Below, piece by piece: positions 36,094 to 60,082 of a stretch of 64,000 nucleotides of DNA. The position numbers and the translations under genes are program-made. The notes below the pieces were generated by a model that saw only the letters and a list, made by a program, of their open reading frames with translations, was not told where the DNA came from and ran no database searches. Each line of letters starts with the position of its first letter. Position 1 is the stretch's first letter. This DNA comes from Planctomycetota bacterium (GTDB lineage: Bacteria; Planctomycetota; UBA1135; GCA-002686595), in contig NYYZ01000044.1 in NCBI GenBank assembly GCA_002686945.1, positions 18,801 to 82,800 on the forward strand, read 5' to 3'.

Positions 36094-37212
36094 ATGAACC
36101 CCGAAGAGCTCCTGCGCCTGATCGACGTCCTTCAAATCCAGAAGGATGTCTCCAAGGAAGCGATCTTCCTGGCCCTTGAGGACGCCCTGGCCCAGGGGGT
36201 TCGCAAGCGCCTTGGCATGGGTGAAGATCTGACGGTGCAGCTGGACCGCAAAACCGCCGAGATCACGGTCGAAGACGAGGAGGGCGAGTATGAAATCGAG
36301 TTGACCGAACTCGGGCGCATTGCGGCTCAAGCGGTCAAGCAAGGCTTCTTCCAACGGCTGCGCGAGGCCGAGCGTGATGTGCTCTATGAGGAATACGAGA
36401 ACCGCGTGGGCACGCTGGTCAACGGCCAGGTGCAGCGCTACGAAGGTCAGGATCTGGTAGTCAACCTGGGGCGGGCTGAAGCCTACCTTGCCCGCGAAGA
36501 CCGAGTGCGAGGCGAAACTTTCGCCCCTGGCGACCGCATCCGCGGCATCGTGGTCGAGGTGCGCAAGGATGGCAGCCGCGTCCGCATCCAACTCTCCCGT
36601 ACTCACCCTGACCTTGTGCGTCGACTCTTCGAGTTGGAAGTACCTGAAGTCGCTGACGAGATCATTCAGATTAAGCGGGTTGTACGCGAGCCCGGCTACC
36701 GCACCAAGATGGCCGTGATCTCCAGCGACCCGAAGATCGACAGCATTGGCGCCTGCGTGGGAGTGCGGGGTTCGCGCATCAAAGCGGTGATCGATGAATT
36801 GCGCGGTGAACGCATCGACATCATTCGTTGGAGCGACTCCCTCGAAACCCTGATCATGAACGGCCTCAAGCCCGCCTCGATCCACTTGGACAACATCTAC
36901 CCGGACGAAGACCGACATGCGGCAATCGTGCTAGTAGAAGAAGACCAGCAGTCTTTGGCTATCGGCAAGCGCGGCCAGAATGTGCGCCTGGCGAGCAAAC
37001 TCTGTGGTTGGGAAATCGACATCAAGACACGCGAGCAGTATTTTGCCACCGAGGACGGCTTGGACCCCAACGCTGAGACACCCGCAGAACTGGGAGAGTC
37101 AACACCCGAATCAGATGACGCCCCAGAGCAAGAAGCATCTGCCGTGGAGGCCCCCGCTGACACCGCAGCAACCACGGAAGTAGCCACCCCTCCTGGTGAA
37201 GACCAAGCCTGA
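36094..37212 (+). CDS. nusA: Transcription termination/antitermination factor NusA
   Basis: The N-terminus (EELLRLIDVLQIQKDVSKEAIFLALEDAL), an S1 domain and two KH domains (GACVGVRGSRIKAVIDELRGERIDII; AIGKRGQNVRLASKLCGWEIDI) are present, followed by an acidic tail. Confidence 0.92.
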   Translation: MNPEELLRLIDVLQIQKDVSKEAIFLALEDALAQGVRKRLGMGEDLTVQLDRKTAEITVEDEEGEYEIELTELGRIAAQAVKQGFFQRLREAERDVLYEEYENRVGTLVNGQVQRYEGQDLVVNLGRAEAYLAREDRVRGETFAPGDRIRGIVVEVRKDGSRVRIQLSRTHPDLVRRLFELEVPEVADEIIQIKRVVREPGYRTKMAVISSDPKIDSIGACVGVRGSRIKAVIDELRGERIDIIRWSDSLETLIMNGLKPASIHLDNIYPDEDRHAAIVLVEEDQQSLAIGKRGQNVRLASKLCGWEIDIKTREQYFATEDGLDPNAETPAELGESTPESDDAPEQEASAVEAPADTAATTEVATPPGEDQA

Positions 37213-37257
37213 ATCCTGCTCACCTTGTGCAGAAGCAAAACCCAGCCCCCACTCCAG

Positions 37258-39921
37258 TTGAGCGACAAGACACGCATTCACGAACTCGCAAAGTCCTACG
37301 GCATGCCCGGAAAGGACTTGGCAAGCAAACTGCGCGAGAATGGCTTCGTCCAAGCCAGGTCGCACATGTCTGCCCTCGACTCGATCGAGCTGCTACAAGC
37401 CAAGGGCCTGCTGGCCGCCATAGGCATCACTGAGGTCCGGACGGACACGGCGCCGGTCAAGGCAAAGGTCACGGAAAACGCCACGCCCCTGCTCAGACGC
37501 AAGAAAAAGAAGGCCAGCACCAATGCCCCCGCGGACGAAGCCCCCAATGCGCCCTCGGCTGGACCAGAAGTGCAGACTGCCCCCGAGCCAGCTCAAGCAG
37601 AGGTAACCAGCAGCCCAGCCCCGGAATCCGAGGCGGAGGTCAGCACTCCCCCTGAGCCCGAAGCAAGACCTGAGGAGCCAGCTTCTGAGCAGGAACCGGC
37701 CCCCACGCCCGTTCCTGCGGCAGAGGAACCCACGACTGACCCCGCCGACGCTGGATCAGGCGATGATTCTCCACAAACAGCTCCACCTGTTGAGGCCCCG
37801 ACTGCCAAGAGTGCAGAGCCGCAACCCCGAGGCAAGATTGTCGGTCGCATCGACCCAGCCACCCTGGCGGCCCAAGCAGAGCCCCAGCGCAAGCGCGAGG
37901 GCCGCCGTCTGCTCAACCAGGACGATGCCACCCCTGACGTTCACCCTACCTTTGGACGCGGCAAGGGAACCCCAGGCCAAACCACCGGTCCCCGAGGGGG
38001 CATGACCGCCACCCAGTTGCGCGAGCGCGAACAGGGCCGCTTCCTGCGTCGCAACCGCCAATCCGGTGTCCAGGGCCAACGCCGCACAGGAGGCCGTGGG
38101 CGCCCGGCTTTGGTGACCGAGTCCCCCTTGACGGGCGAGACGGTTTCGATCGAGATGCCGATCACCATGAGCAAGCTGGCAGAGACCCTTAAGCTCAAGG
38201 CTGCGGTGGTTCAGAAGATGGCCATGCAGAAACAGTACGGCATGTTCACTTTGAACTCTGCCATCGACGAGGACACGGCGGTGCTGTTGGCCACAGAATA
38301 CGAGGTGGAACTCCGCGTACAGCACGAAGTCTCAGCGGAACAGACGCACCTGGAAGACATCAAGGCCAAGCGTTCGGGACTTGAAGGAGACGACCTGGTG
38401 AACCGCCCTCCCACCCTGGCCTTCCTAGGTCATGTGGACCACGGCAAGACCACCCTGGTGGACAAGATCCGCGCAACCAAGGTGGCAGACGGGGAAGCCG
38501 GCGGCATAACCCAGCATATCGGCGCATACCAGGTCACAACCTCCAACAAGAATTCGGTGACCATCGTCGACACCCCCGGACACCAGGCCTTCAGCTCCAT
38601 GCGCGCCCGCGGGGCTCAGGCTGTAGACGTGGTGGTGCTGGTGGTCGCCGGCGATGATGGAGTCAAACCCAGCACCGAAGAAGCCGTGGCCCACGCACGG
38701 GCAGCCGAAACGCCGATCATTGTTGCGGTCAACAAGCTGGACAAGCCCGAGTACGACTTCAACCGCACCGTGCAGCAGTTGATGAAATTCGATCTGACCC
38801 CGGAAGACTACGGCGGACAGACTGCATACTTCCAAACCAGCGGCATAACCGGTGAGGGCATCGAGGAGATGCTCGACCACGCATTCCTGATGGCAGAGGC
38901 CGAACTGGGGCTCAAGGCACACCAGAGCGGGCCCGCCAGTGGAGTGGTGCTGGAAGCCGAAGTCCAGCAGGGCCGAGGCATCGTAGCTCACCTCTTGGTT
39001 CAGGACGGAACCCTGAATCAGGGCGACGTGATCCTGGCAGGCGAAGGCTACGGCAAGGTCAAGTCCATCTCGAGCGACCTAAACAAGCAGGTCAAGTCCG
39101 CCGGACCGAGTACTCCGGTAGCGGTCATGGGTCTTGATGCCCTGCCTGGAGTTGGCGACAAGTTCCACGTGATCGAAGCCCTTTCCAAAGCCAAGGAAAT
39201 CGCGCAAGAGCGCGAGCGCCGCAACCGCGCCTCTTTCCTGGCAGCCAGCACGGGCCCCAATCCAGAACTGGAGGCGATCCTGGGCAAGGAGCCCCTGCTT
39301 GAAAAGACCAACATCAACCTGATCGTACGCGCCGATGTGCAAGGATCAGTGGAAGTCATTCGCCATGAGGTAGCGAAACTCGACCACGAAGAGGTTGCGG
39401 TCAAACTGGTCCATGCGGGCGTGGGCCAGATCACCGAAAGCGATGTGGAACTGGCGGAAGCCTCCGGCGCCACCTTGGTGGCCTTCCACACAGGCATCCC
39501 GGGCACTATCCGCAAGGAAGCAGAACGCCGCAAGATCATAGTTCGCCGTTACGACGTGATCTATGAGTTGCTCGACCAACTGCGCGACCTGATGGAAGGC
39601 ACTCTCTCGCCGGAGATGCAAGAGGAAATCATCGCACATGCGGAGGTCAAGGCCTTGTTCAAGTCCTCCAAAATCGGCGTCATCGCCGGATGCGGCATTA
39701 CCGACGGAACCCTCAAGCGCAACCACAAAATACGCGTCCTGCGCGACGGAACTGTGGTGCACACTGGCAGCATCGAATCTCTTCGTCGCGAGAAAGACGA
39801 CGCCCGAGAAGTCCGCGAAGGATTTGAGTGCGGCATCGTACTCGCGAATTTCCGCGATCTACGCGAAGGCGATGTGATCGAAGCGTTCGTCATCAACGAG
39901 ATCAAGCGTACCCTCGCTTGA
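37258..39921 (+). CDS. infB: Translation initiation factor IF-2
   Basis: The G domain ([24 protein letters not shown]) and the IF2 C-terminal domains are present. TTG 37258 gives the canonical N-terminus (M)[18 protein letters not shown] 37225 is the alternative. No ATG is available. Confidence 0.9.
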
Positions 39922-39944
39922 TTCCAACAGCGGCCCAGCAACCC

Positions 39945-40451
39945 ATGGCCAACCAGAGGACCATTGCGCGAATCGAGGGCGCCATCAAGAGGCGTGTGGC
40001 CCACTGCCTGCAATTTGAGGTGGCGGACCCGCGGGCGGGCTTTGTGACCATCATCGCTGCGGAACTGACCCCGGACCTTGCCAAGGTCACCGTACGCTGG
40101 AGCGTGCTCGATCCCGAGGAAGAGCGGGTGCGCGTAGAGAAAATGCTTGAGCACGCGCGCGGCTTCGTACAACGCAAGATGGGTCGCGTGCTCTCCCTCA
40201 GGCGCATGCCACGCCTGGAGTGGAAATACGATGACACCGGCATCGAAGCTGCACGCATGGATCTGCTGATCAGGGATGCCTTGACGAAGGACGCAAACGT
40301 GCGCGGCGACACGCCAGAGACGGTCACAGATAATGAGCATTCACACAACCACACGCCGACATTGGACGTCCCAAGCGGTAGGCCCGACGAGGCCCCCACG
40401 CCTATCGACGACACAACCGGCTCCCCTCCCCCGGGGACCCAGCAGGACTAG
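39945..40451 (+). CDS. rbfA: Ribosome-binding factor A with an acidic/Pro-rich C-terminal extension
   Basis: RIEGAIKRRVAHCLQFEVADPR..VTIIAAELTPDLAKVTVRWSVL is present, in canonical position after infB. ATG 39945 was chosen. Confidence 0.88.
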   Translation: MANQRTIARIEGAIKRRVAHCLQFEVADPRAGFVTIIAAELTPDLAKVTVRWSVLDPEEERVRVEKMLEHARGFVQRKMGRVLSLRRMPRLEWKYDDTGIEAARMDLLIRDALTKDANVRGDTPETVTDNEHSHNHTPTLDVPSGRPDEAPTPIDDTTGSPPPGTQQD

Positions 40452-40454
40452 ACC

Positions 40455-43400
40455 ATGCAAGAGCCGGCTTTGATCCAGATCGGCTCCCTTGGAAAAGGCA
40501 CCAGCGGCCAGGTCTTGCACGCCAAACTGCTCGCGCCCCTGGGAGACTACGAAGCGGGAACAGAGGTGGCTCAGAAGAGGCCGCTCACCGCCGCAGGCGC
40601 ACGGAGTATCCAACGGGAGCAACTAGTCCTGGCTGGAGTCCAAGCCCCCAACTTGCAAGTCAGCCTGGGTCTGTTCGAAGACCAGGAAGGTCCCTTCCTG
40701 TTGACCCGCTTCATCGAGGGTCCAACCATCGCAGACCTGATTGCACAAGGGCCAATGGAGGACGAGCCCCTTCGGCGGGTGGGAAGAGACCTGGCCCAAG
40801 CTCTTGCCGCGCTGCACACTGCCGGCTGGCTGCATGGAGATCTGGCCCCCGCCAACGGACGCCAAGATCCAGAAGCCCGCACGATTTTGCTGGACCTGGG
40901 CTTCGCCGAGCGCACGGATGCCAAAGCCTCCTCCCGCGGGACCCCCGCCTACCTTTCGCCGGAGGAAGCCCGTGCTGCTCCCAAGACCTGCGCCTCGGAA
41001 ATCTACTCCCTGGGTTTGATCCTCTGGGAACTCGCCACTTCCAGTCATCCCCTCTCCCCGGACGGCCGTGCCTCAAATGTACAAGAGGAGGCTCTGACCG
41101 ACGCGGTTCATCTGCTGCCCAGCGCCCGCAATCCGCGCCTGGCCCCGGACCTGGATGAGTTGCTCGGACTGATGCTCGACGAGGAACCGAGCGCTCGCCC
41201 CACCGCGCAGGAGGTTGCCCGTTGGCTCGACAACCCTCCCCCCCCGCACGCCTGGGGTGAAGATCCCTGGGCCGCCCGGGACTGTCTGCCATTTGTTGGG
41301 CATAGGGAGGAAATGGCGCAGTTGCATCAGGCCTGGGAGTCCGCCAGCGCGGGCCAAGGAGCACTGGTCTGGCTCGAAGCCGACCGGGGCCTGGGAAAAA
41401 CACGCCTGATGGAAGAGTTCGTGCGGTCCCTGCGACGCGGTCCAAGTCCCGCAACCTACCTCGCGGTGCGCTGCGCAGCGGCACTCGAAGGCCGACCCAC
41501 ACACCCGATCCGAACCCTGCTGCGACGCTGGCTGGCCCTGGGACGCCACACTCCTGCCAGTCCGCGGGAGAGCAGACTGCTCGCATCCAGGACGACGTCC
41601 CATGTGGCAGCTGCCCTGGCCCAGACCCTCGATCCCGGGGCCGCCGCTCTGCCCCAGATGGAAATCACCCTGCTGTCTCATTGGCTCATCCGCACCGCAG
41701 GCAGCAGCCCCATGGTCATCCTGGTGGACGAACTACAACATGCTGGAGAGGCAACCCTGGCAGTGCTCTCGCGCCTGATCGATGTCCTGCCAGGACTGCC
41801 CCTCTTACTGGTCCTGGGGACACGCGCTCCAGAAAGCTCCCCAAACAAGGCCATAGCAGCCCTGGCGGCACGTGCAAGAGAAGCGCTCCCCCATATTCGA
41901 ATGCGCCTGTCGCCCCTGGACATAAAGAGCATCAAGGAACTGATTGATCTTACATTCGCGGGCAGCGTCCCAGCCGAGCGTCTCGCGCAGGCGCTGCAGA
42001 AACGAACCGAGGGACGACCCACTCGCATCGACGCCCTGATCAAGCAAGCCCTTCTCACCGGACTGATGCGTGTTCATGCGGGAGGTGGTTTGGAACTGGT
42101 GGGGGACATCGAAGACCTGCCCCACATGCAGGGGCGCATTCCCGACCTGCAAGCCCGCTTGACCAGCATGGACCCCGAGGCTCGCAACTGGATAGAACGC
42201 ATCGCAGTGGATGGCTCCGTCGCCCGGACCGAGCGGCTTGCCCAGGGTGCAACCCGCGATGAAGTGCGCGCTGCCATCGCCCTGTTGTTGCGTGAAAACT
42301 GGCTGGAGCAAGGACCTGAGGGCCCGGCCTTCGCGAGCAGCACGATTCGTGACGGAGTGCTGACTGCCATTCCCCATGCCAGGCGCAGGGAGCTTCACAG
42401 TCAGGCGGCAGATGCTCTGGCAAATGAGTCCGGATCTGGCCGTGCCTTCGAACGAGCCTTCCACCTCAAAGCCGCAGACCGGAAAGAAGATTTGCTGCAA
42501 CTCGTCTTGGAGTTGCTGCCCAAGGCTCAGGCCCTTGGTCATCCAGCACGGGTGCTTGTGCTGGTGGAGTGGGCTCTTGAAGGCAGCGCCCCTCCCCACC
42601 AGGAAGGGCAGCAAATTTCAGCCCATCAGGCCCTGGAACTGCACGCCGCCGCTGCAGAAGCAGCTGGGGGCCTGGGCCGCAGGCAACAGGAGAGCCAACA
42701 CCTGGATGCTCTGGTGGAACTTCCCTTAGACAGCAAACGAAATCCCACCGAAGTGGCCCGGGTCTACCTGCTGCACGGACACGCAGCGGCAGACACGGGG
42801 CGCGCAGGCCTTGCCCGCGGCTATCTGCGTAACGCAGCGCGCCTTGGACTGCCTGGCAAGCAAGCGGATCTGACTGCTGAAGCCCTCAGGCGCCTGGCAG
42901 AGATCGAGTTGGCCACGGGGAATCAAGAAAAGGCCCTGAAGCTGGCGCGCCGAGCCCGCTCCCGAGCCCACTCCCCCCTGGTGGGCTTGAAAGCCCTGCT
43001 GATCAAAGGTCTGATTGCTCTGCTGCAAGATCGGCCAACGCGTGCGCGAGCCCACGCCCGGGCGATTCTCAAACGCTGCGACAAAACCCCGGACACCCCC
43101 GCTCGAGCCGAAGTCGAAGCCCGTGCTTTGATTCTCAAGGCTCGCTGTCATTCCGCCATGGGAGATCCGGAAACGGCCTTGCCCCTCCTGCAGTCCGCCC
43201 TGCAAGCCGCAGAACAAGCGGGTCAACGGGCCCTGGAGGCCGAAGCCCACGCGCGTCTGGGTCGCGTGCTGATCGACCTGGACCAAGATCAAGCTGCAGA
43301 ACAATCACTGCGCGAGGGCCAGCTGATCGCCCAGGAGATTCGCATGGGCCAGGGCGAAGTTCTTGCGCGCCTTTTTCTTGGGACCCTTTTGATGGAGCAA

Positions 43401-43826
43401 GACCGAGGCCTCGGTGCGCGCCTGGTGAAGCAAGCTCTTGAGCGCGCCTGTGCCCTGGGATTGGTACGCGCCGAGTCCCTGGCCCAAGCAATCTGGGCCC
43501 GGGTACTCCGTACAGGAGACCACCCCAAGGAAGCCGCCGAAGCCGCGCGAGCAGCGCTGAATTCCCTCCAGCGGGTTGGCGCTGAACTCTGCGACCGCAT
43601 TGTGATCGTGGGCACCCACCAATTGATCATCGATCCCGAAGGAAGCGGAGACGAGTCCAGGAAGAGGTCGAGGGACTTGGAGCAGCGTATCGCCAGGGTC
43701 AGCCGAGCCGCCAGTCGTGGAGCGAACCGCGCGCGTATGAAAGCCAGCCTCGAATCCCTGAAGCGAGCGGTGGAGAACCCAGAAGGCCCCCTCTACCCCC
43801 GACGCGGGAGACAGACCGAGGACTAG
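40455..43826 (+). CDS. Ser/Thr protein-kinase-like domain + AAA (P-loop) ATPase + TPR-like repeats (STAND-type regulator, 1123 aa)
   Basis: Kinase subdomains have variant motifs (HGDLAPAN, DLGFA, GTPAYLSPEE). The P-loop is EADRGLGKTRLMEEF. A long helical/TPR C-terminal half follows. Confidence 0.75.
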   Translation: MQEPALIQIGSLGKGTSGQVLHAKLLAPLGDYEAGTEVAQKRPLTAAGARSIQREQLVLAGVQAPNLQVSLGLFEDQEGPFLLTRFIEGPTIADLIAQGPMEDEPLRRVGRDLAQALAALHTAGWLHGDLAPANGRQDPEARTILLDLGFAERTDAKASSRGTPAYLSPEEARAAPKTCASEIYSLGLILWELATSSHPLSPDGRASNVQEEALTDAVHLLPSARNPRLAPDLDELLGLMLDEEPSARPTAQEVARWLDNPPPPHAWGEDPWAARDCLPFVGHREEMAQLHQAWESASAGQGALVWLEADRGLGKTRLMEEFVRSLRRGPSPATYLAVRCAAALEGRPTHPIRTLLRRWLALGRHTPASPRESRLLASRTTSHVAAALAQTLDPGAAALPQMEITLLSHWLIRTAGSSPMVILVDELQHAGEATLAVLSRLIDVLPGLPLLLVLGTRAPESSPNKAIAALAARAREALPHIRMRLSPLDIKSIKELIDLTFAGSVPAERLAQALQKRTEGRPTRIDALIKQALLTGLMRVHAGGGLELVGDIEDLPHMQGRIPDLQARLTSMDPEARNWIERIAVDGSVARTERLAQGATRDEVRAAIALLLRENWLEQGPEGPAFASSTIRDGVLTAIPHARRRELHSQAADALANESGSGRAFERAFHLKAADRKEDLLQLVLELLPKAQALGHPARVLVLVEWALEGSAPPHQEGQQISAHQALELHAAAAEAAGGLGRRQQESQHLDALVELPLDSKRNPTEVARVYLLHGHAAADTGRAGLARGYLRNAARLGLPGKQADLTAEALRRLAEIELATGNQEKALKLARRARSRAHSPLVGLKALLIKGLIALLQDRPTRARAHARAILKRCDKTPDTPARAEVEARALILKARCHSAMGDPETALPLLQSALQAAEQAGQRALEAEAHARLGRVLIDLDQDQAAEQSLREGQLIAQEIRMGQGEVLARLFLGTLLMEQDRGLGARLVKQALERACALGLVRAESLAQAIWARVLRTGDHPKEAAEAARAALNSLQRVGAELCDRIVIVGTHQLIIDPEGSGDESRKRSRDLEQRIARVSRAASRGANRARMKASLESLKRAVENPEGPLYPRRGRQTED

Positions 43827-57220: not shown

Positions 57221-58069
57221 TCAAGAGGAAGCCTGATCCAGGCCTGTACCGAATGCGGCGGGTGCCTCCCAGCCAGGATCCGCCGCCATCTCGCCTCCCT
57301 CTGCTTCGAGAATATCGAGTACATCAAGCTCGACGCAGCCACAAGTAACGCCTTTCAGCAGGCCACCCAGGCAAGGATCCGTGCGCCCGTCTTCGCCACT
57401 GATGAATTCCTTGACATAGGTGCCATGTTCGGTCAGGAGCTGCACGCGCAGGGCCGAATCACCCAGCATCTCGATGGACTCCAATTCGATCCAACGCTCC
57501 CGAATCTTGTCCGCCCGTCGATGGGCCACCCTGCTGGGAGTGCGCTGGGCCAGAACAATTCGCTGACCCACAAGAGCGTCCTTCGCCTGGGCGTCAATCT
57601 CTCCCTCGATAGACACATGCACCCCATACCGTTTGGCGTGCTTGCCCTCTTTGATCAACCGCCCCCTCGCCTTCTCGGTCCAATGCAAGCCACTGATTTC
57701 CAGGCGACCCTCGTTGCGGCTATTGACCAATGCCTCGAGCTCAGCTAGATCCGCGTCCGGGTTCGAAGGGTTGATCAGTTCCAAGATGAACGGTCGACCG
57801 CGCCCGAGCATGCGCACGTCCACATCCTCCCGTCCTGCCCCATGGAACTTGTGCTTACGGGTGCCGAATCCCTTGCCCAATACCCACCCCACCAACTCCT
57901 GGACCGAGTCCCGAGTGAGCTTGCCGAAACCTTCGCATTTCTCACAGTTGCGCCGCCGCCGTGGATGGCCCTTGCACTCAGGACAAAAGAACACCGTCTG
58001 GGGAAGATCGCGAGTGAGCTTGCGATAACGCCCCTCGACAAAGATCTTGACTTGGGGCTGATTGGGCAT
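57221..58069 (-). CDS. pus10: Pus10-family tRNA pseudouridine synthase, catalytic domain only (no THUMP N-domain)
   Basis: GRYRKLTRDLPQT, the catalytic GREDVDVRMLGRGRPF, QRTPSRVAHRR, and EHGTYVKEFISGEDGRTDPCLGGLL are collinear with Pus10. CPECKG-x8-CEKCEG is a zinc-ribbon-like insert. ATG 58069 was chosen. Confidence 0.75.
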   Translation of the reverse strand: MPNQPQVKIFVEGRYRKLTRDLPQTVFFCPECKGHPRRRRNCEKCEGFGKLTRDSVQELVGWVLGKGFGTRKHKFHGAGREDVDVRMLGRGRPFILELINPSNPDADLAELEALVNSRNEGRLEISGLHWTEKARGRLIKEGKHAKRYGVHVSIEGEIDAQAKDALVGQRIVLAQRTPSRVAHRRADKIRERWIELESIEMLGDSALRVQLLTEHGTYVKEFISGEDGRTDPCLGGLLKGVTCGCVELDVLDILEAEGGEMAADPGWEAPAAFGTGLDQASS

Positions 58070-58192
58070 GGTGAGTTTCCTGGAGATCCAATGGGGAAGA
58101 CCCGGGAGGATAGCCGCCGGTCCCCCCACCAGTCACCCGAGAACAGATTCCCGGGCAATACTTCCCCTGCAGACTGCTAGGATCCCCGGGGC

Positions 58193-59086
58193 ATGCATCC
58201 GATTCTCCTCGAAATCCCTGGACTGGGCCTGCCCATTCGCTCCTTCGGGGTGATGGTGGTACTGGGCTTTCTGCTGGCCTCCCACCTGTTCACGCGCTGG
58301 TACTTCCAGCGAGCCACGAATGGCGATGAGGACGCCCAGGGCATCGGCGCCCTGCCCCTATGGGTCATGGTCGGCGTAGTTGGCGGCGCACGCGCGGCCT
58401 ATGTGCTGGTGGAATCCCTGCAAGGGACTGAAACCGGTCAGCGCTACCTCAGCGATCCACTCTCGATGCTGTACGTCTGGGAGGGAGGACTGGTGATGTA
58501 CGGGGGCTGCTTCGGAGCGATCTTTGGGGGCTGGTTGTGCGTCAGAAAATATGCCCTGCCTTTCACCCAGATCCTTGACCTGACTTTTATAGGCGCCTTC
58601 TTCGGTCTCAGCATCGGACGCATCGGCTGCCTCCTGGTGGGCGACGACCACGGCAGCATCGTGCCGGACAAATGGAGTCACCTGCCGTTTCCGATCACCG
58701 TGGATGTGCCCAGCCTTGAGTGGCTGAACGCAAACCCGGACAGCCTGTTCCCCCGTGAGCTAGCGGGCCAGACCATCTGGGCCACGCAGCCCTGGATGAC
58801 CATGAACGCTCTTGCCTTGGGAGTCATAGGCCTTTGGTTCCTGCGCCACCGGGCGTACCGGGGACAGGTAGTGCTCCGTCTGCTGGCGCTCTACTCCGTC
58901 GGCCGTTATTGCATCGAGATATTCCGCGGGGACTCGATCCGTGGACTCTGGTTCAAAGACACGATCTCAACCTCCCAACTGGTCTCGATCCTGCTTTTCA
59001 CCTTTTGCGTGAGCATGCTGTTCAAGAACCGCCATCGTCAAGAACCGGAGGGCCTGCCCCAAACTGACCCGGTCGCCAACGACTAG
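58193..59086 (+). CDS. lgt: Prolipoprotein diacylglyceryl transferase
   Basis: IRSFGVMVVLGFL, WEGGLVMYGG, GRIGCLLVGDDHG and YSVGRYCIEIFRGD are present. Confidence 0.9.
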   Translation: MHPILLEIPGLGLPIRSFGVMVVLGFLLASHLFTRWYFQRATNGDEDAQGIGALPLWVMVGVVGGARAAYVLVESLQGTETGQRYLSDPLSMLYVWEGGLVMYGGCFGAIFGGWLCVRKYALPFTQILDLTFIGAFFGLSIGRIGCLLVGDDHGSIVPDKWSHLPFPITVDVPSLEWLNANPDSLFPRELAGQTIWATQPWMTMNALALGVIGLWFLRHRAYRGQVVLRLLALYSVGRYCIEIFRGDSIRGLWFKDTISTSQLVSILLFTFCVSMLFKNRHRQEPEGLPQTDPVAND

Positions 59087-59092
59087 ATCCCC

Positions 59093-60082
59093 ATGCGCCC
59101 GACCCCAGATGGCCCCCGGATTCATGCTGGCATAGATGAAGCTGGCCTGGGCCCCTTGCTCGGCCCCCTTTGCATCGGCTGGTGCGTGACCAGTTCGCCC
59201 TCACAGGCGAAGCACCTCAACCACTGGGATCTCTGGCGCAGTGCGGTTAGTCAGAAGCACCCCCGCAAGCGCGACCTGCTGTACGTGGCGGACTCCAAGC
59301 GCGTGTTTGATGGCAGCTCCAGTAGCCGAGCGAGGCTGGCAGCCACAGCCCTCAGCTTTCTGCGCGCGGCTGGCAACCCGGCAGTCAGCGGCAGGGACCT
59401 CTTGCATAGCCCAGTTCCCCCACTGCGCCCCCGGGAGGAGGGTCCTGCCCCCTGGTTCGGCTCCTGGTTGCTGACTCTGCCCAACGAGGTTCCAGAACAG
59501 CAGCTCAAGCTGCATGCCGCGTCCTTGGAAGCGGCGATGAAATCCTCCGCCTGCCGCGTGCTTGAGGCGGCAGTGCGCATTGCCCCAGCGGGAGAACTCA
59601 ACGCATCTTTCGAGCGCACGCAGAACAAGGCGGTATCCACCTGGGCGCTGGTGGCGCCAATTTTGACCCACCTGTGGCAGATCTATGGGCAGCAACAGGT
59701 GGCCGTCGTGCTAGATCGCCAAGGGGGGCGACGGCACTACGGTGGCCTGCTGGCCCAAGAATTCCCCTTCTGTGAAATACAAACCCTGATCGAATCCAGG
59801 GACATCGCAGAGTACCGAATCTGCGGGGAAAACCGCCGCATGCTGCTCACGGTGCGAACCAAAGCAGAGGATTCAAGCCTGCCCGTGGCGGTGGGCTCCT
59901 GCCTTGCCAAGTACGCTCGAGAGAGCGTCATGGATGCCTTCAACCGCTGGTTCGCTGACCTTCAAGAAGAACTCAAGCCAACCGCCGGCTATGTGACCGA
60001 TGCGCGTCGTTGGCTGCTGGATGCCAGGCCCGCCCTGGCCAAGGCCAAGGTACCCGCTGAGTTACTGATTCGAACCCGCTAG
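59093..60082 (+). CDS. Divergent, elongated RNase HII-family (RNase H2 fold) protein (329 aa)
   Basis: GIDEAGLGPLLGPL (the DEAG motif), VADSKRV (the DSK motif), and KAEDSSLPVAVGSCLAKYARE (the AD...VAAASI.AK.R motif) are present. Extra sequence of >100 aa separates the motifs. Confidence 0.55.
   Translation: MRPTPDGPRIHAGIDEAGLGPLLGPLCIGWCVTSSPSQAKHLNHWDLWRSAVSQKHPRKRDLLYVADSKRVFDGSSSSRARLAATALSFLRAAGNPAVSGRDLLHSPVPPLRPREEGPAPWFGSWLLTLPNEVPEQQLKLHAASLEAAMKSSACRVLEAAVRIAPAGELNASFERTQNKAVSTWALVAPILTHLWQIYGQQQVAVVLDRQGGRRHYGGLLAQEFPFCEIQTLIESRDIAEYRICGENRRMLLTVRTKAEDSSLPVAVGSCLAKYARESVMDAFNRWFADLQEELKPTAGYVTDARRWLLDARPALAKAKVPAELLIRTR

What the first reader, a model, noticed from the sequence alone, without database searches (positions are those of the whole stretch)
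57221..58069. Bacterial Pus10-type pseudouridine synthase (catalytic domain only) in a genome segment whose rbfA operon lacks truB
Seen in sequence: the 282-aa product carries the Pus10 signature blocks GRYRKLTRDLPQT, GREDVDVRMLGRGRPF (catalytic Asp) and EHGTYVKEFISGEDGRTDP. It also has a CPEC...CEKC zinc-ribbon-like insert and has no THUMP-containing N-terminal domain.

Established knowledge: Pus10 makes tRNA pseudouridine 54/55 in Archaea and is also present in many eukaryotes. It is generally described as absent from Bacteria, which use TruB for pseudouridine 55.

Inference: this may be a lateral acquisition or an ancient bacterial Pus10 lineage, possibly substituting for TruB.
Basis: partly seen in the sequence, partly recalled or inferred. 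Interest (0 to 1): 0.6.

Follow-up and report, generated by a model that had tools for sequence, protein, structure and literature searches.

The report
THUMP-less Pus10 replaces TruB in Planctomycetota
This planctomycete bacterium, like its whole class, has no gene for TruB (the usual bacterial enzyme that makes tRNA pseudouridine-55) and instead has a conserved, stripped-down copy of Pus10, an enzyme that reviews still say bacteria lack.

Summary
Window 57221-58069 (minus strand) encodes a 282-aa protein that is only the catalytic domain of Pus10 (Pfam PF21238, 199.6 bits). The AlphaFold model (pLDDT 93) matches human PUS10 with TM 0.77. All catalytic-core residues are conserved, and dN/dS is about 0.04.

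The genome is a Planctomycetota MAG in the class that holds Saltatorellus ferox. In that class Pus10_C was found in 200 of 201 genomes. TruB was not found in this genome, in 19 of 19 high-quality relatives, or in five closed or near-closed genomes including S. ferox Poly30. Across 301 genomes of the phylum, 47 of the 48 with Pus10 lack TruB.

- The CPEC...CEKC "insert" is the ancestral archaeal forefinger zinc knuckle. Here it carries a clade-specific 5-residue basic insertion (HPRRR; 121 of 121 sequences).
- Loss of THUMP is specific to this class. Other planctomycete classes carry a THUMP-bearing Pus10 of apparently separate archaeal origin (AU p = 0.024).

The nearest relatives of the window clade are DPANN archaeal Pus10s.

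I think the protein most likely makes tRNA pseudouridine-55 in place of TruB (about 0.7). Activity at position 54 is open. No biochemistry exists.

The scan reported this family before on at least five other genomes. NCBI and JGI already name these proteins Pus10.

The parts
57221..58069 (-). CDS of the 282-aa Pus10 protein that consists of the catalytic domain only (stop codon 57221-57223)
   Evidence: ORF list and translation. Pfam and NCBIfam matches. dN/dS 0.034-0.040 against close orthologues.
57311..58042 (-). Pus10_C catalytic domain, residues 10-253
   Evidence: PF21238 profile positions 1-231 of 232. AlphaFold2 pLDDT 93.4. Foldseek match to 2v9k with TMq 0.77 and rmsd 2.5.
58019..58033 (-). 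Motif GRYRK (residues 13-17); Y15 and K17 are invariant
57935..57985 (-). Forefinger zinc knuckle CPEC-x9-CEKC (C29, C32, C42, C45)
   Evidence: The four Cys are invariant across Planctomycetota, DPANN and Methanococcales sequences. The same element occurs in archaeal Pus10. By spacing to the catalytic Asp it corresponds to the ffl1/ffl2 region of MjPus10 (the mapping is my inference).
57953..57967 (-). Clade-specific basic insertion HPRRR in the knuckle linker
   Evidence: The linker is 9 residues, KGHPRRR[RK]x, in 121 of 121 planctomycete-type sequences. It is 4 residues in 108 of 113 DPANN/archaeal sequences.
57818..57835 (-). Catalytic motif GREDVD. Catalytic Asp D82 is at 57824-57826; R80 and D84 correspond to MjPus10 R273 and D277.
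   Evidence: Alignment to human PUS10. Invariant columns. MjPus10 residue roles from PMC3753934.
57500..57547 (-). Thumb loop QRTPSRVAHRRADKIR (residues 175-190) with the His-Arg hook
   Evidence: Q175, T177, P178, R180, V181, R184, R185 and R190 are invariant. Role of the thumb loop from PMC3753934.
57224..57304 (-). Variable C-terminal tail of lower model confidence (residues 256-282)
   Evidence: pLDDT 58-78. Tail length is 14-65 residues among homologues.
58070..58192 (.). Divergent intergenic region between pus10 and lgt
   Evidence: ORF map. No consensus sigma-70 promoter was found.
58193..59086 (+). lgt, the conserved divergent neighbour (context only)
   Evidence: PF01790. Adjacent in 73 of 80 related loci.
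36094..40451 (+). nusA-infB-rbfA operon without truB (context)
   Evidence: Pfam assignments. RBFA match.
40455..43826 (+). Ser/Thr-kinase/AAA/TPR gene at the position after rbfA where truB sits in E. coli

Best explanation
The gene encodes an active, stand-alone pseudouridine synthase that is the catalytic domain of archaeal-type Pus10. I think it most likely converts U55 of the tRNA T-loop to pseudouridine and so does the job of TruB, which this bacterial class lacks.

It would bind the T-arm directly, as TruB does. The contacts would be the thumb loop and a zinc-knuckle forefinger whose tip carries an extra run of arginines. It has no THUMP domain to dock on the acceptor end.

The lineage was probably acquired from an archaeon related to DPANN groups, then lost the THUMP module, and has since been inherited vertically as a core gene.

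**Shown here:** family membership, fold, conserved residues, purifying selection, phyletic pattern, absence of truB.

**Inferred:** the substrate (tRNA U55), the docking role of the arginine insertion, and the direction of transfer.
For: **Family and fold.** Pus10_C scores 199.6 bits and TIGR01213 scores 251.6 bits. The best structural match is human PUS10, TMq 0.77; TruA reaches 0.52 and TruB no more than 0.40.

**Active-site residues.** These are invariant: R80, D82, Y148, R184/R185, K220, L248 and the four Cys. They correspond to residues needed for MjPus10 activity.

**Selection and synteny.** dN/dS is 0.034-0.040 at dS 0.24-0.39. Synteny with lgt holds in 73 of 80 loci.

**Phyletic pattern.**
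- Pus10_C is in 200 of 201 genomes of the class.
- TruB_N is in 0 of 19 high-quality relatives.
- TruB_N is absent from closed or near-closed genomes G406 (S. ferox Poly30), G369, G403, G434 and G157.
- No truB remnant was found in this genome.
- Across the phylum sample, 47 of 48 Pus10-positive genomes lack TruB_N.

**Substrate present.** All 32 canonical tRNAs recovered carry U54-U55-C56-R57-A58.

**THUMP is not strictly needed.** MjPus10 modifies a T-arm micro-helix (PMC9957541).

**Position 55 rather than 54.** Sister families f9 and f7 have both Pus10 and TrmFO, so there the orthologue is presumably needed only for position 55.

**No THUMP in trans.** No separately encoded THUMP module was found.
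Against: - There is no biochemical or transcript evidence.
- About 94 of 301 near-complete planctomycete genomes have neither TruB nor Pus10. TruB can therefore be lost without a Pus10, and co-absence is not proof of substitution.
- Related genomes are not independent samples, so the mutual exclusion may rest on few evolutionary events.
- The THUMP domain is reported to contribute to tRNA binding in archaeal Pus10 (Kamalampeta et al. 2013; cited from my own knowledge, listed as a reference). Its loss could mean a changed substrate.
- This genome is only 78.6% complete.
Confidence: 0.7

Rival explanations
1. The enzyme is dual-specific, like M. jannaschii Pus10. It would make both Psi54 and Psi55, giving this bacterium an archaeal-type T-loop.
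For: - The forefinger segments ffl1 and ffl2, which MjPus10 needs for Psi54, are retained in full; the loop is 5 residues longer.
- R80, Y148, L248 and the His-Arg thumb hook are all present.
- No TrmFO and no TrmA were found in this genome or in its family (0 of 15). The only m5U methyltransferase is an RlmD equivalog.
Against: - The N-terminal cysteines reported as important for MjPus10 Psi54 activity are absent.
- TrmY, the Psi54 methylase, is absent.
- Sister families f9 and f7 have TrmFO together with the same Pus10.
- TrmA and TrmFO are missing from most Planctomycetota whatever their TruB or Pus10 status, so their absence is not specific.
Confidence: 0.2
2. The enzyme no longer acts on the tRNA T-loop. 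Having lost the THUMP domain, it modifies another RNA (rRNA, tmRNA or mRNA), and the loss of TruB is uncompensated, as in the planctomycetes that have neither enzyme.
For: - About 94 of 301 genomes of the phylum have neither TruB nor Pus10.
- The THUMP-containing accessory domain is predicted from the human PUS10 structure to dock the acceptor/CCA end, and it is missing here.
- The clade has a long stem branch (0.37-0.40) and its own insertion.
Against: - Residues lining the active site and the thumb loop are invariant with archaeal tRNA enzymes.
- The near-perfect mutual exclusion with TruB is hard to explain if the functions do not overlap.
- Pus10 works on a bare T-arm.
Confidence: 0.12
3. 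The gene is an ancient bacterial Pus10 lineage inherited vertically from before the split of Bacteria and Archaea, not a lateral acquisition.
For: - The clade is monophyletic with a long stem.
- It is a core gene with conserved synteny.
- The tree is unrooted, so a root on the bacterial stem cannot be excluded formally.
Against: - Pus10_C was not found in any of 10 bacterial control genomes.
- It is in only 48 of 301 genomes of its own phylum.
- The window clade groups with DPANN sequences inside archaeal diversity at 100/96, while the Pus10s of other planctomycete classes group elsewhere.
- A single planctomycete clade is disfavoured (AU p = 0.024).
Confidence: 0.08
4. The protein is a catalytically dead RNA-binding remnant or a decaying gene.
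For: Human nuclear PUS10 has non-catalytic roles.
Against: - The catalytic Asp and the whole core are invariant.
- dN/dS is about 0.04.
- No stops occur in any of 80 loci.
- Length is uniform across 121 homologues.
Confidence: 0.02

Closest known systems
Archaeal Pus10 (tRNA pseudouridine 54/55 synthase; TIGR01213, COG1258; M. jannaschii and P. furiosus enzymes)
   Same: - The catalytic domain matches over its full length.
- The GREDxD motif, Tyr, Val/Ile-Lys and Leu core residues are present.
- It has a thumb loop with the His-Arg hook.
- The CxxC...CxxC forefinger knuckle has the same spacing (37 residues) from its last Cys to the catalytic Asp.
   Different: - It has no N-terminal zinc ribbon and no THUMP domain.
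- The knuckle linker is 9 residues with HPRRR instead of 4 residues.
- The host is a bacterium.
- Activity is untested.
DPANN archaeal Pus10 (Micrarchaeota, Diapherotrites; about 340 aa)
   Same: - These are the nearest relatives by score (44-46% identity) and in the tree (100/96).
- They are already reduced: they lack the N-terminal zinc-ribbon module.
   Different: - They keep the THUMP module (PF22023).
- They have the 4-residue knuckle linker.
THUMP-bearing Pus10 of other Planctomycetota classes (for example the genomes behind L107-L124)
   Same: - They occur in the same phylum.
- Their genomes also lack TruB, except G285.
- They have a Pus10_C catalytic domain.
   Different: - They keep an N-terminal module of about 85-110 aa that is homologous to the DPANN THUMP region (hhalign 98.2%, E 4.6e-14).
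- Their knuckle linkers differ, or the Cys are lost.
- They fall on the other side of a 99/96 branch.
Human PUS10 (PDB 2v9k)
   Same: The catalytic fold matches: TMq 0.77, rmsd 2.5 A, 30% identity.
   Different: - Human PUS10 has a large N-terminal accessory domain.
- It lacks the 16-residue zinc-knuckle segment.
Bacterial TruB (tRNA pseudouridine-55 synthase)
   Same: - The proposed function and substrate are the same.
- Both are single-domain enzymes able to act on the T-arm.
- The two are mutually exclusive in genomes.
   Different: - It belongs to a different pseudouridine synthase family. The only Pfam hit for this protein at E <= 1 was Pus10_C; structural TMq is no more than 0.40.
- TruB has a PUA domain and no forefinger loop.

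Membership tests
Pus10 catalytic-domain family (Pfam PF21238) | Profile match above the curated cut-off over the whole domain | tested here: met
   199.6 bits against a cut-off of 27; profile positions 1-231 of 232
Pus10 catalytic-domain family (Pfam PF21238) | Catalytic Asp in G-R-E-D-x-D, with Arg at -2 and Asp at +2 | tested here: met
   GREDVD at residues 79-84. R80, E81 and D82 are invariant; D84 is nearly invariant. Feature defined in PMC3753934.
Pus10 catalytic-domain family (Pfam PF21238) | Core Tyr, hydrophobic-Lys pair and Leu (MjPus10 Y339, I412-K413, L440) | tested here: met
   Y148, K220 and L248 are invariant. The correspondence is by offset from the catalytic Asp, which is my inference.
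Pus10 catalytic-domain family (Pfam PF21238) | Three-dimensional fold of a solved Pus10 catalytic domain | tested here: met
   Model pLDDT 93.4. 2v9k: E 3.4e-23, TMq 0.77; the next family, TruA, reaches 0.52.
Pus10 catalytic-domain family (Pfam PF21238) | Thumb loop and forefinger loop flanking the active site | tested here: met
   The thumb loop QRTPSRVAHRR is conserved, and the forefinger knuckle has four invariant Cys.
Canonical full-length Pus10 (NCBIfam TIGR01213 equivalog; 'the THUMP-related pseudouridine synthase') | N-terminal accessory domain with a THUMP module (plus a zinc ribbon in most Archaea) | tested here: not met
   Only profile positions 160-401 of 402 match. There is no PF22023 or PF02926 hit. 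Only about 9 residues precede the catalytic domain. No THUMP module is encoded elsewhere.
Canonical full-length Pus10 (NCBIfam TIGR01213 equivalog; 'the THUMP-related pseudouridine synthase') | tRNA Psi55 (and Psi54) synthase activity | not testable with these tools
   Needs pseudouridine mapping or an enzyme assay.
TruB family (PF01509, TIGR00431) | Profile match to the TruB catalytic domain | tested here: not met
   The only Pfam hit for this protein at E <= 1 was Pus10_C. Fold TMq to TruB structures is 0.28-0.40.

The most novel reading that the evidence does not exclude
Planctomycetota took up archaeal Pus10 at least twice, and each time the lineage is found without TruB. The Saltatorellus-class lineage came from a DPANN-like donor and lost the THUMP domain completely. 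It evolved an arginine-tipped zinc-knuckle forefinger that takes over tRNA docking. The enzyme makes both Psi54 and Psi55, so these bacteria have an archaeal-type T-loop.
Probability: 0.15. Interest if true: 0.8.

Novelty: new variant of a known kind. Interest (0 to 1): 0.62.

Why it matters
TruB is one of the most widely conserved bacterial genes. Reviews from 2021 and 2023 state that Pus10 occurs only in Archaea and some eukaryotes. Here a whole bacterial class, which includes a cultured and fully sequenced strain (Saltatorellus ferox Poly30), has a Pus10 and no TruB.

This is a natural case of non-orthologous replacement of a core tRNA-modification enzyme across domains of life.

The clade has also discarded the THUMP domain that characterises Pus10. 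It is therefore a natural experiment on what that domain contributes to tRNA recognition and to the choice between positions 54 and 55.

THUMP-bearing and THUMP-less forms coexist within one phylum, alongside genomes with TruB, with both enzymes, or with neither. That gives a comparative system for asking whether Psi55 is dispensable.

The claim is directly testable in laboratory strains.

Tried and rejected
**Tools and look-ups that gave nothing**
- Fitzek et al. 2018 on Pus10 evolution is not held in the library.
- Literature searches for bacterial or planctomycete Pus10 found nothing relevant.
- The listing of cluster members gave almost no taxon labels. Labels came instead from a second homology search.
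- The promoter and terminator scan gave no usable signal.
- A look-up of P0156 in the scan's notes found nothing.

**Readings considered and rejected**
- *The zinc element is a new insert.* Archaeal Pus10s have it too.
- *The gene call is truncated or the gene is a pseudogene.* The 120 listed homologues are 272-332 aa long with the same start, and dN/dS is about 0.04.
- *The contig is archaeal contamination.* It carries nusA-infB-rbfA and lgt, synteny holds in 73 of 80 loci, and the gene is in closed bacterial chromosomes.
- *A hidden or decayed truB exists.* The best tblastn E-value was 0.75.
- *PF01509 misses a divergent TruB.* TIGR00431 also found none in five genomes that lack both enzymes.
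- *THUMP is supplied in trans.* None was found.
- *Absence of TrmA and TrmFO points to Psi54.* This is weakened because both are rare across the whole phylum.

Full report
**1. Observation**

The window carries an open frame at 57221-58069 on the minus strand, 282 aa from an ATG.
- An upstream in-frame GTG at 58129 is possible. The ATG fits the family better: 121 homologues have a median of 12 residues before the GRYxK motif, as here, and an AGGA lies 9-12 nt upstream.
- Pfam gives one family, Pus10_C (PF21238): 199.6 bits, residues 10-253, profile positions 1-231 of 232.
- NCBIfam TIGR01213 (Pus10, archaeal equivalog) scores 251.6 bits, above its cut-off of 200. Only profile positions 160-401 of 402 are matched, so the protein is the C-terminal catalytic half alone.
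- By sequence the only solved relative is human PUS10 (2v9k, E 1.2e-30, chain residues 289-519).
- An AlphaFold2 model built on a 54-sequence alignment has mean pLDDT 93.4 and pTM 0.87. Its best structural match is 2v9k (E 3.4e-23, TMq 0.77, rmsd 2.5 A). TruA reaches TMq 0.52 and TruB 0.28-0.40.

**2. Host and context**

Related loci come from Planctomycetota MAGs and from the complete genome of Saltatorellus ferox Poly30.
- The window lies on contig 44 of a 2.82-Mb MAG that is 78.6% complete.
- The rbfA operon is nusA (36094-37212), infB (37225-39921) and rbfA (39828-40451). It is followed directly by a Ser/Thr-kinase/AAA/TPR gene and then ApbE, not truB.
- The pus10 gene is monocistronic. 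It is convergent with a FabA-like gene and divergent from lgt.
- This arrangement is old. Within 4 kb of the gene, lgt is found in 73 of 80 related loci, an RNase-HII-like gene in 70, an amine-oxidase-like gene in 59 and the FabA-like gene in 58. This holds down to about 60% Pus10 identity.

**3. The gene is functional**

- Against two close orthologues dN/dS is 0.034 and 0.040, at dS 0.24 and 0.39.
- No locus has an internal stop.
- A wide search found 3726 homologues at E <= 1e-5. The 120 listed are 272-332 aa long and carry PF21238 only.
- In an alignment spanning Planctomycetota, DPANN archaea and Methanococcales, the following are invariant: Y15, K17, Q24, T25, C29, C32, C42, C45, R80, E81, D82, Y148, Q175, T177, P178, R180, V181, R184, R185, K220 and L248.
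- By offset from the catalytic Asp these correspond to MjPus10 R273, D275, Y339, the thumb-loop His-Arg hook, K413 and L440. Mutagenesis showed the roles of those residues in Psi54 and Psi55 formation (PMC3753934). The correspondence is my inference from spacing.

**4. The zinc element**

It is an insertion relative to human PUS10, which has a 16-residue gap there. Archaeal-type homologues have the same CxxC...CxxC knuckle directly after the PQT motif.
- The paper on MjPus10 places its forefinger segments at Cys227-Arg231 and Cys238-Val249.
- The distance from the last Cys to the catalytic Asp is 37 residues in both proteins. The element is therefore the ancestral forefinger loop.
- What is specific to this clade is the linker. 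It has nine residues, KGHPRRR[RK]x, in 121 of 121 planctomycete-type sequences. It has four residues, [KR]G[KR]G, in 108 of 113 DPANN/archaeal sequences.
- I infer that this arginine run adds RNA contacts that offset the loss of THUMP. This is not tested.

**5. TruB and the phyletic pattern**

- TruB_N (PF01509) was not found in this genome. The same search found it in all 14 control genomes.
- tblastn with two planctomycete TruB-like proteins gave nothing better than E 0.75.
- Among 41 genomes of the order, Pus10_C was found in 40 and TruB_N in 2. Among the 19 high-quality genomes, Pus10_C was in all 19 and TruB_N in none.
- In a class-level sample Pus10_C was found in 200 of 201 genomes.
- By its coordinates, G406 in that sample is S. 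ferox Poly30.
- Five closed or near-closed genomes of the class, G406 among them, have no TruB_N match. The best score was 15 bits.
- Across 301 genomes of the phylum, nearly all at least 90% complete, 48 have Pus10_C and 160 have TruB_N. Only G285 has both.
- About 94 have neither. Five of these were checked with the full-length TruB model and again gave nothing.
- So the two enzymes are close to mutually exclusive, which points to overlapping function. TruB can also be lost without Pus10. Related genomes are not independent, so I attach no p-value to the pattern.

**6. Origin**

An exhaustive HMMER search of 1.84 billion representatives found 2346 relatives.
- After a few short planctomycete clusters, the next best hits are proteins of 320-450 aa with N-terminal extensions.
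- The closest of them are Pus10s of DPANN archaea (Micrarchaeota, Diapherotrites). These carry the THUMP module (PF22023) and the catalytic domain but no N-terminal zinc ribbon.
- In maximum-likelihood trees of the catalytic domain the short clade is monophyletic (100/98-99) with a stem of 0.37-0.40. It groups with the DPANN sequences at 89/94 in one sampling and 100/96 in another.

I then fetched the Pus10 genes of planctomycete families outside the window's class.
- They are different. They have 85-110 residues before the catalytic domain.
- Eight of ten give sub-threshold but nearly full-length matches to PF22023, and one more matches the generic THUMP model (PF02926).
- A profile of their N-terminal regions matches the DPANN THUMP region with 98.2% probability and E 4.6e-14 over 84 columns.
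- Their knuckle linkers are of the archaeal four-residue type, or long and Arg/Gly-rich, or the cysteines are partly lost.
- In the joint tree they fall on the other side of a 99/96 branch, among other archaeal sequences.
- Forcing all planctomycete sequences into one clade costs 36.7 log-likelihood units (AU p = 0.024). I named that group after seeing the tree, so I treat this as suggestive evidence for two acquisitions, not proof.
- The trees are unrooted, so the direction of transfer rests on distribution: Pus10_C was found in none of the 10 bacterial control genomes and in 48 of 301 genomes of this phylum.

**7. Position 54 or 55**

The 32 canonical tRNAs recovered from this genome all carry U54-U55-C56-R57-A58.

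*For Psi54 activity:*
- The forefinger is intact, and R80, Y148, L248 and the thumb hook are present.
- No TrmFO was found. The best score was 58.8 bits against a cut-off of 428.
- No TrmA was found. The one m5U methyltransferase is an RlmD equivalog: 281 bits on the RlmD model, and 60 bits against a cut-off of 335 on the TrmA model.

*Against Psi54 activity:*
- The N-terminal cysteines reported as important for MjPus10 Psi54 activity are absent.
- TrmY is absent.
- Sister families f9 and f7 have true TrmFO together with the same Pus10.
- TrmA (0 of 301) and TrmFO (13 of 301) are rare throughout the phylum, so their absence is not informative.

MjPus10 acts on a T-arm micro-helix, so a THUMP-less enzyme acting on the T-arm is plausible. 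No separately encoded Pus10-type THUMP module exists in this genome or in closed relatives. I conclude that Psi55 synthesis is the conserved role (about 0.7) and that Psi54 is open (about 0.2).

**8. What is known**

- Reviews from 2021 and 2023 state that Pus10 is not found in Bacteria. A 2017 paper says the same.
- I found no paper on a bacterial Pus10.
- NCBI and JGI pipelines already name these proteins Pus10.
- This scan had already reported the THUMP-less planctomycete form on at least five other genomes, and a Pus10 that replaces TruB in Bipolaricaulota. I did not test the Bipolaricaulota claim.

- the gene's core-gene status in the class;
- absence of truB in closed genomes, including a cultured strain;
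- the finding that loss of THUMP is specific to this class, while other classes keep a THUMP-bearing and apparently separately acquired Pus10;
- the clade-specific arginine insertion;
- the DPANN affinity;
- the large set of planctomycete genomes with neither enzyme.

**9. Verdict**

This is a real, conserved and probably active Pus10 catalytic domain that most likely replaces TruB. It is a new variant of a known enzyme family. It is surprising to specialists and directly testable, but it rests on genomic inference only.

Noticed in passing
Phylum sample (for example G045, G046, G050, G052, G063; family f35 0 of 23 for both): About 94 of 301 near-complete Planctomycetota genomes have neither TruB nor Pus10. 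Five were re-checked with TIGR00431 and again gave nothing. Either Psi55 is missing there or an unknown enzyme makes it.
   Followed up: partly
G285:C1:7363470-7364189 and G285:C1:8436291-8436716 (L115): One closed 9.2-Mb planctomycete genome (family f77) carries both a THUMP-bearing Pus10 and a TruB. It is the only co-occurrence among 301 genomes.
   Followed up: no
L108, L111, L114, L115, L116, L120, L124: The THUMP-bearing Pus10s of families f26, f67 and f77 did not match the CxxC...CxxC knuckle pattern; in the sequences inspected (f26, f67, f77) the first Cys pair is degraded (for example RWIHHACNGHGCPTC). Families f52 and f37 have long Arg/Gly-rich knuckle linkers.
   Followed up: partly
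window 59093-60082 (+): A 329-aa protein has only a weak, partial RNase HII match (37.5 bits, profile positions 125-176). It follows lgt in 70 of 80 related loci. It is a conserved gene of unclear function.
   Followed up: no
whole genome G000: All 33 tRNA genes found encode the 3' CCA. A tRNA-Sec gene is present on contig 48.
   Followed up: no
L013 (G010:C9:191398-191841) and L012 (G008:C261): Two genomes of the window's own family give TruB_N matches. One is a divergent TruB-like ORF (104 bits) on a large contig. The other is on a 1.4-kb contig of a 610-contig MAG and may be contamination.
   Followed up: no
L029 and L093: Records titled Glaciecola sp. and Paracoccaceae bacterium carry the planctomycete-type pus10. 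L029 also has the planctomycete lgt/RNase-HII-like synteny. These MAGs are probably mis-binned or mislabelled.
   Followed up: partly
Phylum sample: Recognised tRNA U54 methyltransferases are rare in Planctomycetota: TrmFO in 13 of 301 genomes and TrmA in 0 of 301. The state of U54 in most of the phylum is unknown.
   Followed up: partly
window 40455-43826 (+): A 1123-aa Ser/Thr-kinase/AAA/TPR gene starts 3 nt after the rbfA stop, where truB sits in E. coli.
   Followed up: no
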